Sequence record: PZ445450.1
Length of the DNA: 64,000 nt
Source: a phage
Strand: one strand, 5' to 3'
Shown: positions 5,340 through 61,739 of the stretch, one piece after another
Position numbering within the stretch: the stretch's first letter is position 1
How the letters are laid out: each line of letters starts with the position of its first letter
Program-made: the position numbers and the translations under genes
The notes under the pieces: model-generated
The model's input: only the letters and a program-made list of their open reading frames with translations
What the model was told of the DNA's origin: nothing
The model's database searches: none

Positions 5340-6383
5340 ATGACTAAACCAGTTATCCCTCTTGATATTTGGGCCAATCAGGATGTTGTGCTTGAAAATA
5401 CGGGAGAGTTGAATAAATCTCAACCAAAAAAAGAAGAGAGATTGAAAGGTTGGGATATGACACAAAGAATGGCATGTGAAGTTGTTAACTTTGAACTTCA
5501 CATGCTTTCTGCGTGGTTGAAGCATTTAACAGAAGATGTTGTCCCAGGATGGGATAATAGATTCTTAAGGGTCACTAATAATCTAGCAGACGTTCCAGAC
5601 AAAGCTGCTGCACGTCAAGTTCTCAATGTATACTCACCTGAAGAAATGGACGATCTATATGTTGACAAGTCTGGAGACATAATGACTCAGACTCAAACTT
5701 TAGGTCTTCAAAGAATCGAGTTTGCATCTGCGTCAACAGACAGTGCGGCAATATATACCACCATAACTCCAGACAAGACGACGATGGATTTCTGGATTAT
5801 GGACAACATCGGTGGTGCTGACGGCACAGACCTTGATGATCCTTCTCACCAAATAGATGGGTTCCGTTGGAGATTTCAACCTTCTGGTGGGCAGCCTGTG
5901 TTTTCAGCTATGAAGCTCAATGCTATAACTGCCAACCGTGCAAGACTGGCTATCCAAGGAAATCTTGAATGCAACGATGCAAAAAGTTCCTCTGCAAATG
6001 CCAATGCGGTCACGATACCAAGAGCCACTGTTAATGGACAACAATCCTGCGGAAGCGCTCAAATAGGTGGAAGAGTTGATTGTAACGATGAAACCGTCAG
6101 GGGCCAATATGCAACAGTTGGTGGAAGAAACGTGGTCCGCAGGGTAAATGGTAACGGCGCAGACAGTAGCGGTAACCTTACTATCCCTATGCCTAGCAGA
6201 GGGGTTGATGATGTAAGGATAGCAAACCGTTTTAAAACCACCTACAGAGAGTCAAGAGTCTACCCTGGACATGTGATGTGCTCTGGTAACTACGCTTATA
6301 AACACCCTTATCAAGGTGATTACTGGACAGGTGCTATCCAAAAACTTGTAAATGGTCAATGGATCACTATATCTTATGCTTAA
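5340..6383 (+). CDS. Tail fibre protein, paralog B
   Basis: ATG at 5340 after AGGAGA (track start 5337 is GTG); N-terminus PLDIWANQD.. and C-terminus LVNGQWITISYA conserved with paralog A, middle divergent. Confidence 0.65.
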   Translation: MTKPVIPLDIWANQDVVLENTGELNKSQPKKEERLKGWDMTQRMACEVVNFELHMLSAWLKHLTEDVVPGWDNRFLRVTNNLADVPDKAAARQVLNVYSPEEMDDLYVDKSGDIMTQTQTLGLQRIEFASASTDSAAIYTTITPDKTTMDFWIMDNIGGADGTDLDDPSHQIDGFRWRFQPSGGQPVFSAMKLNAITANRARLAIQGNLECNDAKSSSANANAVTIPRATVNGQQSCGSAQIGGRVDCNDETVRGQYATVGGRNVVRRVNGNGADSSGNLTIPMPSRGVDDVRIANRFKTTYRESRVYPGHVMCSGNYAYKHPYQGDYWTGAIQKLVNGQWITISYA

Positions 6384-39197: not shown

Positions 39198-39226
39198 TTG
39201 ACAACAGTCATAGGGCTTACTATAAT
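39198..39226 (+). promoter_or_regulatory. Consensus sigma70 promoter
   Basis: Exact TTGACA-N17-TATAAT. Confidence 0.7.
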
Positions 39227-39257
39227 GGCCCTATCAAAACGAAAGGGGACCACAGCA

Positions 39258-39530
39258 ATGACCAAACAATATCAACGAATTAAAGCCAAGGTTAAGCCAG
39301 ACTATCTGGAGAAGGACTCTGCTTTTCGGGACTGCACAGCTGACAAAGTTTACACAGGGGCCGTCCTGTTGAACGATGAACTTGAAGTAGATATTCTGGG
39401 TAAAGAGGCCACTATTAAGGACGACCAAGGCGATTATGTTTGCTGCACCACACGTGAGCTAGAAATCTTAGAATACTTCGGTGAAATCTTCACCTCTCTT
39501 GATGATTACTTAGATGATGAGGAAGCGTGA
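39258..39530 (+). CDS. Small protein, paralog family Y (2 of 2)
   Basis: ATG 39258 downstream of the promoter (track start 39198 lies on the -35); KPDYLEKDSAFRDCT..KDDQGDYVCCT. Confidence 0.45.
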   Translation: MTKQYQRIKAKVKPDYLEKDSAFRDCTADKVYTGAVLLNDELEVDILGKEATIKDDQGDYVCCTTRELEILEYFGEIFTSLDDYLDDEEA

Positions 39531-39919
39531 TGAAAAATATTTGGGATATCGATATCTTTGAAGCCTCTAAGCTTGATGGTGCTGATGGAGTGATTATGGT
39601 GTCTGATGGCAAGGCAACACTAACTTCCGGAGATATCATCTATGCCTTGGACGAGCTGGCGCTTCTGAAATCTACCGGTAACACTTTAGAGGAGCGTCTT
39701 CAAGGCTTCGCCTTCAAAGAAGGCACAAATACCGCCATGATGTGCACCACACGGACAGTTCAAGTTGGTAACGGTGTCTATATGATCATTGCTGTGTGTC
39801 CTAAATTCAGCAACGTCAACAAAGATGATGCTGACGCTGTCAACGATGTGGTTGTTCTCTTCGTGGGTGACGCTATGGCAGATCTGATGAATGCAGGAGA
39901 AGCAGCAAATGAAGACTGA
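39527..39919 (+). CDS. Hypothetical protein
   Basis: 130-aa ORF overlapping upstream stop. Confidence 0.4.
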   Translation: MMKNIWDIDIFEASKLDGADGVIMVSDGKATLTSGDIIYALDELALLKSTGNTLEERLQGFAFKEGTNTAMMCTTRTVQVGNGVYMIIAVCPKFSNVNKDDADAVNDVVVLFVGDAMADLMNAGEAANED

Positions 39920-40211
39920 AAACATCACCCCCGCAGGGTTCTTAAAAGTATACCGTGAACTGCTATATACTACAGAGGACAGTGTTCTAGAGTATCCAGA
40001 ATATCTTTTGCTGTATAAGTATCTGCAGGAGGCTGGTGAAAATCTGCCAGTTAGTGCAGAAGGTGGTCCGAACTGGATATACAGCGCATGGAGAAAGGTT
40101 GACATTCTCCCCGACCCAGGTAAAGATATGGTAGTTTGGCAGCTTATTAACAACATCGGGATTCCAATCTTTGATGAAGCTGTTAAAATCTATTTTGAAC
40201 TTGACGATTAA
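39909..40211 (+). CDS. Hypothetical protein
   Basis: ATG 39909 after AGGAGA; overlaps upstream stop. Confidence 0.4.
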   Translation: MKTENITPAGFLKVYRELLYTTEDSVLEYPEYLLLYKYLQEAGENLPVSAEGGPNWIYSAWRKVDILPDPGKDMVVWQLINNIGIPIFDEAVKIYFELDD

Positions 40212-56458: not shown

Positions 56459-56722
56459 ATGAAACGTCTTGACCAGCTCAAACTAGTTCAGTACATGGCT
56501 TACAGAATTCTTGAAGTCCAAAAAGGTAGCAAAAAAGAAGTTTGCGAGAAAGCGTACAAGATCTTTACTCGCAAAAAAGACGATTGGATGTTACGCCAGA
56601 CCAAAAAAGCCGATATCTTGGGGTACCTGGAAGAAGAGATCCGGCTTGAAGAACAAGAAGAGATCCGCCGTAGTGAGGCAGATTATCAGGCAGCTTGGGA
56701 AAACTGGATGAGCAACAAATAA
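56459..56722 (+). CDS. Small early protein
   Basis: 87-aa charged ORF with AAAGAGGAAAA RBS. Confidence 0.45.
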   Translation: MKRLDQLKLVQYMAYRILEVQKGSKKEVCEKAYKIFTRKKDDWMLRQTKKADILGYLEEEIRLEEQEEIRRSEADYQAAWENWMSNK

Positions 56723-56788
56723 TACAACAGGTTGCATGGTCAGGGGCGATAAAGCCCCTTGATCACATAAAAATTATGCTATCCCTTG

Positions 56789-56817
56789 TTGACAGGGATC
56801 GGCAGTTTTGCTATATT
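56789..56817 (+). promoter_or_regulatory. Sigma70-like promoter
   Basis: TTGACA-N17-TATATT. Confidence 0.6.
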
Positions 56818-56866
56818 CTTTTTTGAAGGGAAGTTGTAAGAAAATTAACTAAGAGGTAAAAACACC

Positions 56867-57286
56867 ATGAACATTAAATCTGATAATCCGGCATATAGCT
56901 TTGATAACGCTTTTTGTCACGGTCCGGCGGCGAAAGGATTCGAAATCGATGGTAAACTAATTATTGTCAATGTTGACGGGGAAGAGGTTGCAGTATATCC
57001 GGTGGCAGACGTTAAAAGCCGTCTACAATGCCGCATAGATGTTACCGCCTATCAGCTTGATCCGGTCCGGGTAGTTGCCCTGGTCCTGGAAGAAGAAATT
57101 AAAGCAATGCACCACAGCAACAAGTTTATTGGTGACGCTCAAGATAATATGCAGGTATGCCGCTATAAAGTTAATGAAGTGCTTAAAGAGTACGGCTATA
57201 AGGATTTAATGATCAAGCGCGATGAAAAATTCCGCTACCGTAACAACCTGGCAAATCGGATTTTTGAAATATACGAATCATTATAA
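56867..57286 (+). CDS. Early protein, unknown function
   Basis: 139-aa ORF with TAAGAGGTAAAA RBS; last gene of rightward early cluster. Confidence 0.5.
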   Translation: MNIKSDNPAYSFDNAFCHGPAAKGFEIDGKLIIVNVDGEEVAVYPVADVKSRLQCRIDVTAYQLDPVRVVALVLEEEIKAMHHSNKFIGDAQDNMQVCRYKVNEVLKEYGYKDLMIKRDEKFRYRNNLANRIFEIYESL

Positions 57287-57304
57287 TTTCTTAACTGAAT
57301 TATC

Positions 57305-57334
57305 AAGGGGCTTAAAGGCCCCTTTCTTTTTGTC
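57305..57334 (+). terminator. Rho-independent terminator closing the early cluster
   Basis: Stem AAGGGGC/GCCCCTT then TCTTTTTGTC. Confidence 0.75.
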
Positions 57335-58046
57335 TGCTCTTCTCCTACCATAAACGGCCCTACCTGGCAAGTGGAATAATTGACTAGCCATCAATCCCAC
57401 ATACTGTACAAATATACATGGAAAATAACTATTGCATAATCTTTCATTGTGCGGTAGCAGGGCCATTTTTACCCGTTTTCTCTCCCAAAAGTGCACGTAA
57501 TGCCGCTATTGCACAAATTTTAACCTGATGCACATATCCAATATCTTGTCAACAACTAAAAATCTTTATAAGTCATACACTTATACAGCATCGAAAGCGT
57601 GTTCTACGTGAAAAATCGAGTATAACTATAGCCGCCAGATCTCAGAATTCACGTACGCACGCCATTCTATAGCCTGCAAAGTATTTATTCCAACCACAGA
57701 ATAACGGAATAGTCAATACCTGCATAAAATAATTATTCGTGTAAACTGCATAACATAAATCAGCTCAGGTGTCAACATTTTTCGTAAACAGTCCGAAATT
57801 ATCACGATGAGTTATCATAAACAGAGAAATCTTTAGTCGTCTAATGTTTACTGTACATTACTATACTGACTGGAATCATTAGATGACTAAGAAAAAGATA
57901 AGAAATAATTAATAATGTAATTGTTTTATCTGTAACAATAAGGCAACCATGCAAACGAATGTCATGGCGCGACGGAGTCGCGACATAATATAAAAGCAGT
58001 AACCATCACCCCCGTGATAGTTTGTCTGCAATCTATTATTCAGATC

Positions 58047-58118
58047 ATAGTTGCCTTGTATTTAGTTAATCATGACATAACAAGCAAGGCAACTATAGCT
58101 CTGATAATAGTTGCCCTG
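58047..58118. repeat. 12-bp inverted repeat pair plus a direct copy
   Basis: ATAGTTGCCTTG (58047) / CAAGGCAACTAT (58085) with 26-bp spacer; direct variant ATAGTTGCCCTG at 58107. Confidence 0.6.
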
Positions 58119-58247
58119 CTTTTATATTATGTCATAGATTGTTAGCTTGTTAACTGTCAGCCTGTTGGCTGTTAGCTTGTCAATTATTAAATTGCTAATC
58201 TTTATCATGCAAACGAATGTCATGGCTTATCATCTCTGTGTAAACAG

Positions 58248-58302
58248 TTTGGGCGTAAACTATTCAGGCGTAAACAGTCTATGCGTAAACAGTGAGATAT
58301 GG
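58248..58302 (+). repeat. Four tandem 15-bp repeats (iteron-like)
   Basis: Units start 58248, 58263, 58278, 58293, each G(T/C)GTAAAC(A/T)..; dispersed GTAAACAG copies also near 57783, 58587, 59347. Confidence 0.65.
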
Positions 58303-59837
58303 AATAGTAACAGCCGTTATTGTGTCATATTGTGTGACATTGTGTCCGGTGTCTGGTGTCCAGTGTGTCAGACAAGTTTTTCTCCTCTTTGTCAAGTGCT
58401 GCATGAAAAATTTACAAACTGGTATGGTAGCATTTTTGCGGCCCTGTTTACATTCAGTTGTGTATGTATAACCCTTGTTGTGTGGGCGTTTAGACGTCTA
58501 GACGGTTGGAAGTCTGCAGGTCAATATCTAATCTATCGGCTGCTAACTATATCCCACACAAATAGTAAGAAATATAATTGTTATGTGCGTAAACAGTAAC
58601 TCATGTTATCAATCCCTGTATGTATCGCCAGTGGTGCGCATAATGGGTATTATGTTAAATTGCCCGTAATGATAATGGTTCTCACAATGATAGGTATTCT
58701 CATTCATCCACACAAAATAGGTTGCAAATGTTGTGCCACTGTGTGAACGGCCTGGCCTATTAATTTCCCTCACTGCCTCGATATTTGAGAATTGTTATAA
58801 GAATGAGAAGTATTCCCATTTCGTCCGCCTGGCAGCACTCCTGTAGTCCTACAAGGACTCTAGCTGAAAGCTAGACCCTTCGGGCCTCCCTGCAGGTCAG
58901 GTCAAAATCGTGGTAGAATTGGGCTTATTCAGATATTTCTGGCCGACTCTTCAGGTCTGTGTGGGAAAAGCCAACCTCTCCGGCGGGGCAGGGGGAGGTC
59001 AATTAAAAAATTTACGTGGTGTATGAAGCGCTCTTCAGGTAAGGCAGGTATTATGGGATGAAACCCTCTTCAGGCAATGATATTTGTGGGTGTGATATTT
59101 GCTGGAAAGCCAGATATGACGGGACTCCCGGCGGGGATGGGGCAGTACAGACAGGGAAAATATGGGGATGTAGTTGGGTAAATTGATCAGACAGGTAGAG
59201 TATGGAATATGTTACAAGTATGTTAAATATGGAGGGTGAATATCTGTAGGATTTGTGTGTAAAATCAAAGACTTAAGCGGTGTTGTGGTATTTTCTATAA
59301 ATAATTCAAGTTTAATAGGTAATATTTGTCTCTATCCACTCTGTGTGGTAAACAGATTCAGATGATATTGGTTTGCAAGTGTATACATAATATACAAATT
59401 AAAGATACAAGAAACCCCCCTCCCCCTTCGGCTACCATTCACCTTTTCCTCTGACTGGTACTTAAACACTTATTCAGACTCTTCAGGTTATCACCCATAT
59501 ATCATATGGCAGTGACTGGTGTCCTCCGGCCCCTCTTTCGTCACCCGTCCGCTTCGCCATGCTAATGCCATAGCCAAATGTTCGGTTGTTCACCCTGTTC
59601 ACTCAGGTGTATCTCCATACCCCTTCAAACCGAAGAGAACAGAAAACCCGAATTACTCGGTAAAAGAAAAGAGAAGAACTTAATTTTATCATGATAGGCA
59701 AGAATGTCAAGGCATGACTGCTCACTAAACAAGCAAACAGTCATGTGTGGAAGGTAAGTGATTGTGGTGGTAGGAAATTTAGTTGAAAGATGTGTTATAG
59801 GTGCTCCCAGCACTTTAGCCGGGTAGCTAATTGTGTG

Positions 59838-60053
59838 TCAGTCCAGTGGTTCATCACCTACTTCACTGAAATCAATGTTCATGGTCTCCTCCCAACCATC
59901 AATCTCAGCACCAGAGTAGAGATCTTTAGGACTTACTCCCAAAGCCTCAGCAACAGAGTCTATATTTAACACCTCTGGCAGGTATGATTCATCGAATTCA
60001 AGGTAAATCAGGCCACGAGTGTTGTCAGCTCCACCAAATATTTCTATCTTCAT
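59838..60053 (-). CDS. Small acidic protein
   Basis: Start set at ATG 60053 with GAGGAGA RBS; 71 aa. Confidence 0.45.
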   Translation of the reverse strand: MKIEIFGGADNTRGLIYLEFDESYLPEVLNIDSVAEALGVSPKDLYSGAEIDGWEETMNIDFSEVGDEPLD

Positions 60054-60173
60054 GAAATCTCCTCTGGAAATGAGAATGTGAACAGGGTTTATATGTTCCA
60101 ATGCACTGGAATTATGCACGTTTGCCTCTTCAGGCCATGCTTTAGCATGAGGAACCTGTGTGGGCTCGGTGCT

Positions 60174-60386
60174 TCATAGTCTACCACCTCTGAACTCTTC
60201 GTGCTCAGGCATAATAGAGAACCAGATATCTACGATGTCTTCCCACGTTAGGTCATCAGCCTCAGGATCTACCTGGAGCGAAGATGGAGAATCTTCAGAA
60301 TTGAAGTTTTCCTCTTGCACTGGCTCAGTCAAGGGACATATAGTCACTCCTTTGGATGTCTCTTCAGACGCATGTGTGGTAGTCAT
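60174..60386 (-). CDS. Small acidic protein
   Basis: 70-aa Asp/Glu-rich ORF; weak RBS. Confidence 0.35.
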   Translation of the reverse strand: MTTTHASEETSKGVTICPLTEPVQEENFNSEDSPSSLQVDPEADDLTWEDIVDIWFSIMPEHEEFRGGRL

Positions 60387-60689
60387 GTTCCACCCGTGAG
60401 TATTCCGGCAACAGCCGCTATGGAAGTAATGATCATCAGGATCACCACTAAAACTTCAGACAATGTTCTCATTGTGTATTCCATATTCTCCAAACTGTGT
60501 GTGGATACTATCACGGGAGCGGTAATGTGTCAACAGCAACGCCGCGAGGGTTTGGTTAAAATCCGAGCGTATGGTGATTTGGGTCAAAACGGACGTGCGT
60601 TCTCGCTACGCTCGAAAGAGAGGTTTGTTTATAGACCGTCCTTAAACGCTCTGTAACGAGATTATCTGTCCAAGGTATGCAATCGTGCA

Positions 60690-61433: not shown

Positions 61434-61739
61434 TTATTCTACAGAGCGTTTGAACAGAATGTCTGCCTCAGACATGTGCTCAACCTCTTCTTCGATTTTA
61501 GCTCGACGTTTTTCAGCCTCATAGCGAATATCGAACTCGGTAGCCACCAGAGATTTGATGAATTTAGGAGAATACAGATGATCCTGCTTCTCAACAAGAA
61601 TGATATCCTTGATGGCATCTTTCAGATCTTTAATCTGAAGCTGGAGTTCCACCAGTTCTTCGATTGTTTTGCGAAGGCGATCACGTTCTGCAGTGTCAGA
61701 AGGAAGAGAGGTGAACAGTTCAACTTTAGATTTAGCCAT
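61434..61739 (-). CDS. Coiled-coil protein
   Basis: 101-aa charged heptad-rich ORF. Confidence 0.45.
   Translation of the reverse strand: MAKSKVELFTSLPSDTAERDRLRKTIEELVELQLQIKDLKDAIKDIILVEKQDHLYSPKFIKSLVATEFDIRYEAEKRRAKIEEEVEHMSEADILFKRSVE

What the first reader, a model, noticed from the sequence alone, without database searches (positions are those of the whole stretch)
58248..58302. Four phased 15-bp tandem repeats (iteron-like array)
Units at 58248/58263/58278/58293 share the core GCGTAAAC with a 15-bp period, and the same octamer recurs dispersed through the non-coding locus. Phased short repeats are typical binding arrays for initiator or terminase small-subunit proteins.
Basis: seen in the sequence. 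Interest (0 to 1): 0.6.

Follow-up and report, generated by a model that had tools for sequence, protein, structure and literature searches.

The report
Phased repeats beside phage terminal repeat
The four phased repeats are real and lie 78 bp from one edge of the 459-bp terminal repeat that marks the ends of an rV5-like phage chromosome, so they most likely help the DNA-packaging machinery recognise or process the genome end rather than start replication.

Summary
GTAAAC cores sit at 58240, 58255, 58270 and 58285 (period 15), with a degenerate fifth unit at 58301. GCGTAAAC occurs in only three tandem units and once more, at 58587.

The window is an rV5-like phage (Vequintavirus). The array lies in a 2.5-kb ORF-free region between converging gene blocks. 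That region contains the virion's 459-bp direct terminal repeat (DTR), window 58371-58829. Five GenBank records, including EdH4 with an exact 459-bp repeat at both ends, begin or end exactly at these positions.

In 16 relatives the array always occupies the same slot, with 2-10 units of 15-16 bp. The core is GTRAAYWRT and the spacers look random. A second short array (RTGTCA) runs from it to the cut site. Both arrays sit in a hypervariable island abutting the well-conserved DTR.

T7 has the same layout: a CCTAAAG heptamer array with a 13-bp period next to its terminal repeat, checked here in sequence.

Best reading: a binding array of the concatemer junction, used for packaging or end processing (confidence 0.45). 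Origin iterons are less likely: no initiator gene, no DnaA-box enrichment, non-helical period, variable copy number. A neutral minisatellite is not excluded. The array is absent outside the genus.

The parts
58238..58309 (+). The 15-bp phased array. Four strong units: GTGTAAACAGT, GCGTAAACTAT, GCGTAAACAGT, GCGTAAACAGT, with cores at 58240/58255/58270/58285. One degenerate unit, GGAATAGTA, at 58301.
   Evidence: Relatives have 2-10 units with a 15-16 bp period and consensus GTRAAYWRT.
58318..58370 (+). Second array of short repeats (TATTGTGTCA x3, then GTGTC(C/T)G x3.6; core RTGTC(A) in relatives). It runs up to the terminal-repeat boundary: ...GTGTCA^GACAAG.
   Evidence: In every relative the last unit..(A/G)TGTCA, directly precedes DTR nucleotide 1.
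58371..58829 (.). 459-bp direct terminal repeat (DTR) of the virion DNA: GACAAGTTTTTCTCC...CATTTCGTCCGCC.
   Evidence: Gotham annotates repeat_region 1-459. The interval maps exactly to record ends in PP464953, PV763136, PP261279 and MH752840. EdH4 has an exact 459-bp repeat at both ends, mapping to 58829 and 58371. Korf 2019 (PMC6563267) reports 458 bp. Identity among relatives is 95.6-97.6%.
58135..58180 (+). 8-bp repeat array (TAGCTTGT x6). It is the most variable stretch of the left hypervariable island and is replaced by other short repeats in relatives.
   Evidence: (Gotham has ATTATTGTCATG-type repeats there; conservation 0.39-0.62).
57948..57968 (+). 21-nt direct repeat CATGCAAACGAATGTCATGGC, copy 1 (left of the large inverted repeat).
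   Evidence: both copies are present in all 16 relatives.
58206..58226 (+). 21-nt direct repeat, copy 2. It marks the left edge of the 15-bp array in every relative.
57982..58133 (.). Large inverted repeat with perfect 18-nt outer arms and inner ATAGTTGCCTTG/CAAGGCAACTAT hairpins. It has cruciform or hairpin potential.
   Evidence: I1, I7, I14. (single-stranded DNA fold -59 kcal/mol, z = -9.5). (94-100% conserved). KPP-1 has an analogous inverted repeat.
57784..57792 (+). Dispersed single copy of the core, GTAAACAGT, in the conserved left flank.
58589..58597 (+). Dispersed copy GCGTAAACAGT inside the DTR. A second, inverted copy (GTAAACAG) lies at 58444-58451 on the minus strand.
   Evidence: both are also present in Gotham.
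58830..58900 (.). Right hypervariable island abutting the DTR. Some relatives have a minimal 21-nt form (TGGCAGCACTCCTGTAGGTCA). The window and others carry 33-66-nt insertions.
57290..59830 (.). ORF-free region of about 2.5 kb between converging gene blocks. It contains all of the parts above.
   Evidence: The homologous region of about 2 kb in Bas54 takes no transposon insertions (preprint 10.1101/2025.11.20.689424).

Best explanation
The array is a genus-conserved, copy-number-variable set of phased recognition sites. The core is GTRAAYWRT, with a 15-16 bp period, all on one strand. It lies in unique DNA just inside one boundary of the 459-bp direct terminal repeat of a Vequintavirus genome, so it is part of the concatemer junction.

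Shown here:
- its position relative to the termini;
- its conservation as an array, with a constrained core and free spacers;
- its continuity with a second short-repeat array that ends at the cut site.

Inferred: a packaging or end-processing protein loads cooperatively on these sites. That protein could be the DNA-recognition component of the terminase or an accessory factor; no small terminase is annotated in this group. Loading would position the nuclease that cuts at ...TGTCA^GACAAG, and possibly set up the duplication of the terminal repeat.

By position and form the array resembles the T7 CCTAAAG arrays next to the T7 terminal repeat. By proposed role it resembles lambda cosB R sites or P1/SPP1 pac repeats.
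For: - DTR mapped to 58371-58829 (literature). The array ends 78 bp from the boundary.
- All 16 Vequintavirus sequences have the array in the same slot, between the second 21-nt repeat and the DTR. They carry 2-10 units, and 94% of spacings are 15 or 16 bp. Shuffled segments give 0.35 units on average.
- Spacer positions carry about 0.1 bit, while core positions are near-invariant or limited to R/Y/W alternatives.
- Copies of the core also lie inside the DTR and in the conserved flank.
- The RTGTCA array runs to the cut site in every relative.
- T7 shows the same layout: terminal repeat 1-160, a CCTAAAG array at 174-340 with a 13-bp period, copies inside the repeat and before the right repeat.
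- The homologous region in Bas54 tolerates no transposon insertion.
- Segment lengths differ by non-multiples of 3, so the repeat is not coding.
Against: - No binding or packaging assay exists. The function of the T7 arrays is itself not established (my knowledge).
- Copy number falls to 2-3 degenerate units in RudolfGeigy, with no exact GTAAAC. A large array is therefore not required.
- The array and the motif are absent or not enriched at the termini of other genera: KPP-1, A5-4, Mt1B1_P17.
- No small terminase is annotated.
- The core information content is inflated, because units were picked by similarity to the core.
- Two papers describe vequintaviruses as circularly permuted or headful, in conflict with the DTR evidence.
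Confidence: 0.45

Rival explanations
1. Neutral minisatellite. DNA next to the terminal-repeat boundaries is broken and resynthesised in every packaging round. Short repeats would expand and contract there by slippage or unequal exchange, with no sequence-specific function.
For: - Hypervariable islands sit exactly on both sides of the DTR, with conservation of 0.28-0.76 against 0.9-1.0 elsewhere.
- Copy number ranges from 2 to 10, and RudolfGeigy keeps only degenerate units.
- The neighbouring 8-bp array is replaced outright in relatives.
- The array is absent in other genera.
Against: - Units share the 9-bp core but not the spacers. Slippage or conversion would homogenise whole units.
- Variation in the core is limited to R/Y/W alternatives.
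- The array persists in the same slot and on the same strand in all 16 genomes.
- The same 9-mer occurs at conserved single-copy sites at 57784 and 58589.
Confidence: 0.22
2. Replication-origin iterons. A phage initiator binds the repeats and opens the nearby AT-rich DNA.
For: - Dense direct and inverted repeats.
- An AT-rich stretch at 57860-57949 with 22-23% GC.
- Local GC skew is negative in the left flank and positive in the right flank.
- The region is essential in Bas54.
- T7 has origin-associated promoters phiOL and phiOR next to its terminal repeats (annotation).
Against: - The 15-16 bp period is not in helical phase, and the core is only 9 bp.
- Copy number is highly variable and the array is hypervariable, whereas the rest of the region is 90-100% conserved.
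- No Pfam domain was found in the 10 nearest ORFs.
- DnaA boxes are not enriched: 4 against 8.1 expected.
- The rV5 authors ascribed the skew change here to the switch in transcription direction.
Confidence: 0.15
3. Binding sites for a host or phage protein acting on the genome end. Possible roles are control of DNA entry, end protection or early regulation, in the manner proposed for the repeat-rich injection-stop region of T5 (my knowledge, not tested).
For: - In virion DNA the array lies about 540-590 bp from a physical end, just internal to one DTR copy.
- The small genes on both sides, which I take to be early genes, are transcribed toward the ends.
- Repeat-rich, ORF-free DNA is also found near the termini of KPP-1 and in the equivalent ORF-free regions of A5-4 and Mt1B1_P17.
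Against: There is no evidence of stepwise DNA entry in this myovirus group. No known host-factor motif was recognised. Nothing found here specifically favours this reading.
Confidence: 0.1

Closest known systems
Phage T7 short-repeat arrays flanking the 160-bp terminal repeat (SRL/SRR of Dunn and Studier 1983; the names are from my knowledge, the sequence was checked here)
   Same: - A short conserved core (7 bp, CCTAAAG) with variable spacers and a non-helical period (13 bp), immediately beside the terminal repeat.
- Extra copies of the core inside the repeat.
- All on one strand.
- The window shows a 9-bp core, a 15-bp period, a 78-bp distance to the DTR, and copies inside the DTR.
   Different: - There is no sequence similarity.
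- T7 has arrays on both sides of the repeat. Here only one side has the GTAAAC array; the other side has an insertion polymorphism.
- The host virus is a 136-kb myovirus rather than a T7-like podovirus.
- The function of the T7 arrays is not established, so the analogy is one of position and form only.
Small-terminase binding arrays at packaging sites (lambda cosB R1-R3, P1 pac hexamers, SPP1 pacL/pacR boxes); from my knowledge
   Same: Several short repeats lie within about 150 bp of the terminase cut site. They are proposed to load the recognition subunit.
   Different: - Those phages use cos or headful packaging and have an identified small terminase.
- Here packaging gives exact ends with a 459-bp repeat.
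- No small terminase is annotated.
- Binding is untested.
Iterons of plasmid and phage origins (lambda ori, P1 oriR, P4 ori/crr)
   Same: Direct repeats in non-coding DNA near an AT-rich stretch. The variant core GTGAACA read on the other strand (TGTTCAC) resembles the P4 type I iteron TGTTCACC. That is a recollection, not a test.
   Different: - The period is 15-16 bp rather than about 22.
- Copy number is variable.
- No cognate initiator gene lies nearby.
- No DnaA boxes are present.
- The array abuts a genome terminus.

Membership tests
Repeat arrays flanking a direct terminal repeat (T7 SRL/SRR type) | Lies in unique DNA immediately next to a boundary of the virion's direct terminal repeat | tested here: met
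   The DTR is 58371-58829. The array is 58238-58309, and the RTGTCA repeats fill the gap up to the boundary.
Repeat arrays flanking a direct terminal repeat (T7 SRL/SRR type) | Short conserved core, variable spacers, regular period of one to two helical turns | tested here: met
   Core GTRAAYWRT, spacers about 0.1 bit, 94% of spacings 15 or 16 bp. T7: CCTAAAG with a 13-bp period.
Repeat arrays flanking a direct terminal repeat (T7 SRL/SRR type) | Arrays of the same core on both sides of the terminal repeat, and copies inside it | tested here: inconclusive
   Copies inside the DTR lie at 58444 (minus strand) and 58589. On the right side there is only a single copy at 59348 and no array.
Terminase-recognition (pac/cosB-type) array | Located close to the terminase cut site | tested here: met
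   It lies 78-130 bp from the inferred cut at 58370/58371.
Terminase-recognition (pac/cosB-type) array | Bound by the small terminase or another recognition subunit, and required for packaging | not testable with these tools
   No small terminase is annotated next to the large subunit. No binding or genetic data exist for the array itself. There is only region-level essentiality in Bas54.
Origin iterons | Repeats of about 17-22 bp, spaced in helical phase, in a fixed number | tested here: not met
   The core is 9 bp, the period 15-16 bp, and the genus has 2-10 units.
Origin iterons | Cognate initiator gene adjacent to, or containing, the repeats | tested here: not met
   The 10 nearest ORFs have no Pfam family at E <= 0.01. 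All are small hypothetical proteins in annotated relatives. A novel initiator cannot be excluded.
Origin iterons | Adjacent AT-rich unwinding element and host DnaA boxes | tested here: inconclusive
   An AT-rich stretch at 57860-57949 lies about 300 bp away. DnaA boxes are not enriched: 4 in the window against 8.1 expected, with one in the region.
Origin iterons | Supports initiation of replication | not testable with these tools
   This needs marker-frequency analysis, 2D gels or a plasmid replication assay.

The most novel reading that the evidence does not exclude
In a phage group with no recognisable small terminase, the GTRAAYWRT array and the RTGTCA array would form the recognition site of a new kind of DNA-end-recognition protein for exact-end (direct terminal repeat) packaging. 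Rapid turnover of the repeats at the DTR edges would set packaging specificity between co-infecting vequintaviruses. This would also explain why the 2-kb intergenic region is essential in Bas54.
Probability: 0.15. Interest if true: 0.65.

Novelty: new member of a known kind. Interest (0 to 1): 0.4.

Why it matters
A 2026 review says the way terminase starts and ends packaging is less well understood for phages with exact direct terminal repeats than for cos or headful phages (PMC13595956).

For rV5-like phages the literature disagrees on whether the genome has fixed ends at all. A 2025 transposon study found the intergenic region of about 2 kb essential but gave no function.

Placing the terminal repeat inside that region gives an immediate candidate reason for the essentiality. 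Defining the conserved-core arrays, the cut-site sequence and the conserved inverted repeat beside it gives concrete sequences to mutate. The practical uses are correct linearisation of Vequintavirus genome records and the engineering of these therapeutic-candidate phages.

The finding is not a new principle. T7 shows the same arrangement.

Tried and rejected
- **Rfam scan** of 56500-60500 at E <= 1: only a chance microRNA match. No known RNA family.
- **Coding repeat:** a 150-aa TTG ORF (58147-58599) spans the array. Array segments in relatives differ by non-multiples of 3, and units are 15 or 16 bp. Rejected.
- **DnaA boxes:** not enriched.
- **Pfam on 10 flanking ORFs:** nothing. This includes the 101-aa protein that some records call a 'transcriptional regulator'.
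- **Conservation beyond the genus:** KPP-1 (Mydovirus, DTR known), A5-4 and Mt1B1_P17 were read. None has a tandem GTAAAC array or any enrichment of the hexamer.
- **IMG/VR scans:** an exact DTR-boundary 26-mer gave one contig. The phased pattern GTAAAC x3 returned 120 or more stretches. I did not read them; judging by the contig names (many giant-virus bins) I took them to be unrelated tandem repeats and did not pursue them.
- **Literature search on 'pacB':** matched PacBio papers only.
- **T7 right-end hairpin:** I recalled this from memory. Only short inverted repeats (10-12 nt) were found in T7 39200-39937. I do not rely on this parallel.
- **GTGTC repeats as T7-primase-type sites:** considered because rV5 has a gp4-like primase/helicase. 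In relatives the repeat is RTGTCA rather than GTGTC. Left as speculation.

Full report
**1. Observation**

The sequence at 58238-58309 reads gtGTAAACAGTttgggcGTAAACTATtcaggcGTAAACAGTctatgcGTAAACAGTgagatatGGAATAGTA.

- Tandem Repeats Finder reports 58240-58293, period 15, 3.6 copies, score 66.
- The repeat finder gives three 21-nt copies with 15-nt spacing.
- GTAAAC starts at 58240, 58255, 58270 and 58285.
- A phased quadruple of this hexamer is expected about 3e-8 times in 64 kb, and about 4e-5 for any hexamer.

So the array is real. Its fourth 'unit' at 58293 has no core, and the true first unit lies before its start coordinate. GCGTAAAC occurs in three tandem units and only once elsewhere, at 58587. 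The more general core GTAAACAG has 8 copies in the window, 7 of them within 57784-59355, against 2 expected.

**2. Context**

The window is an rV5-like phage of the genus Vequintavirus. The segment 57300-59800 matches 121 phage records at 90-96% identity.

The array lies in an ORF-free stretch of about 2.5 kb (about 57290-59830). Small plus-strand genes end at 57286 on the left, followed by a terminator-like hairpin at 57305-57324. Small minus-strand genes lie on the right from about 59838. The junction is therefore convergent. Rfam finds nothing there.

**3. The region holds the genome termini**

- Phage Gotham annotates a repeat_region at 1-459 of its record. Read against the window, this is 58371 (GACAAGTTTTTCTCC...) to 58829 (...CATTTCGTCCGCC).
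- Used as a query, this 459-bp interval maps exactly onto the first or last 458-459 bases of PP464953, PV763136, PP261279 and MH752840.
- EdH4 carries an exact 459-bp repeat at both ends. Its first base aligns to window 58829 on the reverse strand, and its last base to 58371. Its authors reported a 458-bp terminal redundancy (PMC6563267).
- The Mydovirus KPP-1 has a 514-bp repeat with T7-type packaging by PhageTerm (PMC9862379). It also lies at a convergent junction, and its boundary sequences are similar.

The original rV5 paper and one 2026 paper describe the genome as circularly permuted or headful. I judge the exact record ends and the EdH4 repeat to be stronger evidence, but no reads were examined here.

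The array ends 78 bp from the left boundary of the terminal repeat.

**4. Behaviour in relatives**

I compared 16 Vequintavirus sequences. The segment between the second copy of a 21-nt direct repeat (CATGCAAACGAATG[G/T]CATGGC) and the first base of the terminal repeat always contains the array.

- It has 2 units in RudolfGeigy and 10 in rV5.
- 94% of spacings are 15 or 16 bp.
- Shuffled segments give 0.35 such units on average, against 5.5 observed.
- The consensus is (R)(Y)GTRAAYWRT. Spacer positions carry about 0.1 bit. The core information content is inflated by how the units were picked.
- Segment lengths differ by non-multiples of 3, so the mechanical 150-aa ORF across it is not a gene.

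After the array comes a second array with core RTGTCA and a period of about 10-12 bp. Its last unit abuts the boundary in every genome...TGTCA^GACAAG.

A 12-sequence alignment gives the conservation profile:

| Segment | Conservation |
|---|---|
| Non-coding flank 57300-58125 | mostly 0.9-1.0 |
| Non-coding flank 58900-59500 | mostly 0.9-1.0 |
| Terminal repeat | mostly 0.9-1.0 |
| Adjacent coding sequence | 0.81-0.87 |
| Left island next to the repeat, 58125-58370 | 0.39-0.76 |
| Right island next to the repeat, 58830-58900 | 0.28-0.5 |

The right island is an insertion polymorphism, not a repeat array.

Outside the genus (KPP-1, A5-4, Mt1B1_P17) there is no tandem GTAAAC array and no enrichment of the hexamer.

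**5. Neighbouring elements**

- A large inverted repeat at 57982-58133 has perfect 18-nt outer arms. It folds as single-stranded DNA at -59 kcal/mol with z = -9.5. It is 94-100% conserved.
- It is flanked by the two 21-nt direct repeats.
- An AT-rich stretch lies at 57860-57949.
- Local GC skew is negative in the left flank and strongly positive in the right flank.
- DnaA boxes are not enriched.
- None of the 10 nearest ORFs has a Pfam domain.
- No small terminase is annotated beside the large subunit in RudolfGeigy.

**6. Mechanism**

The best-supported reading is that the array belongs to the concatemer junction. It would serve as a loading site for the protein that recognises the genome end for exact-end packaging.

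- Shown: position, phasing, constrained core, continuity with the array that ends at the cut.
- Inferred: protein binding and the role in cutting or repeat duplication.

The rivals are a neutral minisatellite created by breakage and repair at the ends, origin iterons, and a site for an end-binding regulatory protein. I give these 0.45, 0.22, 0.15 and 0.10.

**7. Comparison with known systems**

T7 was read directly.

- Its terminal repeat is 1-160.
- A CCTAAAG array with a 13-bp period occupies 174-340.
- Copies lie inside the repeat, and CCTAAGG/CCTAAAG copies precede the right repeat.

This is the closest analogue in position and form. There is no sequence similarity, and T7 has arrays on both sides.

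Terminase-binding arrays of lambda, P1 and SPP1 are functional analogies from my knowledge. Membership in origin iterons fails on repeat length, phase and number, and on the absence of an adjacent initiator.

**8. Novelty and value**

The terminal repeat of vequintaviruses is already published. I did not find the flanking arrays, the cut-site context or the link to the essential intergenic region of Bas54 (preprint 10.1101/2025.11.20.689424) described in the papers I searched.

The element is a new member of a known kind. A 2026 review notes that exact-end packaging is poorly understood. Interest is moderate, at 0.4.

Noticed in passing
window 57290-59830: Outside two small variable islands, the ORF-free region is 90-100% conserved across 12 vequintaviruses. 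That is more than the adjacent coding sequence (0.81-0.87). A preprint reports that the homologous region of Bas54 takes no transposon insertions. Most of this conserved DNA has no assigned function.
   Followed up: partly
window 57982-58133: A large, perfectly conserved inverted repeat (18-nt perfect outer arms, inner hairpins) has very strong fold potential (z = -9.5). It is flanked by two copies of a 21-nt direct repeat. A sigma-70-like promoter on the minus strand (58153-58126, 10 of 12 matches) and a terminator-like hairpin (58022-58001) bracket it, so a small minus-strand RNA of about 125 nt is conceivable.
   Followed up: partly
window 58830-58900: Directly right of the terminal repeat, relatives differ by presence or absence of 33-66-nt GC-rich inserts between short repeats of CTCCTGTAGGTCA. 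The minimal form is 21 nt (rV5, I29, Murica, SYGMH1). The window has a 70-nt form.
   Followed up: partly
window 58900-59500: The right flank is strongly G-rich on the plus strand (GC skew up to +0.75). It carries repeated CTCTTCAGG (58947, 59031, 59066, 59479) and CCGGCGGGG (58980, 59128) motifs. CTCTTCAG-type motifs also occur in the equivalent region of the distant phage A5-4 (L018 about 5390-5710).
   Followed up: no
window 56867-57286 (+): The 139-aa gene that is last before the non-coding region is 84-90% identical at protein level in phAPEC8-like (Stephanstirmvirinae) and A5-4-like phages. In some of those records it also lies about 1 kb from a record end. This suggests exchange of an end-proximal module between distant E. 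coli myoviruses.
   Followed up: partly
window 61434-61739 (-): A 101-aa protein is 100% identical in nearly all vequintaviruses. It is 42-60% identical across Seunavirus, Mydovirus, Certrevirus and Aeromonas phages. Some records call it 'transcriptional regulator' or 'dsDNA-binding protein', but it has no Pfam match.
   Followed up: partly
GenBank records MG0656xx: About 18 records named 'Campylobacter phage' with host Campylobacter jejuni are 93-97% identical to E. coli vequintaviruses across this region. The host labels look doubtful.
   Followed up: no
rV5 NC_011041 104302-106805 (L016): The rV5 genome paper calls the genome circularly permuted. It attributes the skew change at 104425-105475 to a switch in transcription direction. 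That interval is the terminal-repeat region described here, so many Vequintavirus records are probably linearised at arbitrary points.
   Followed up: partly
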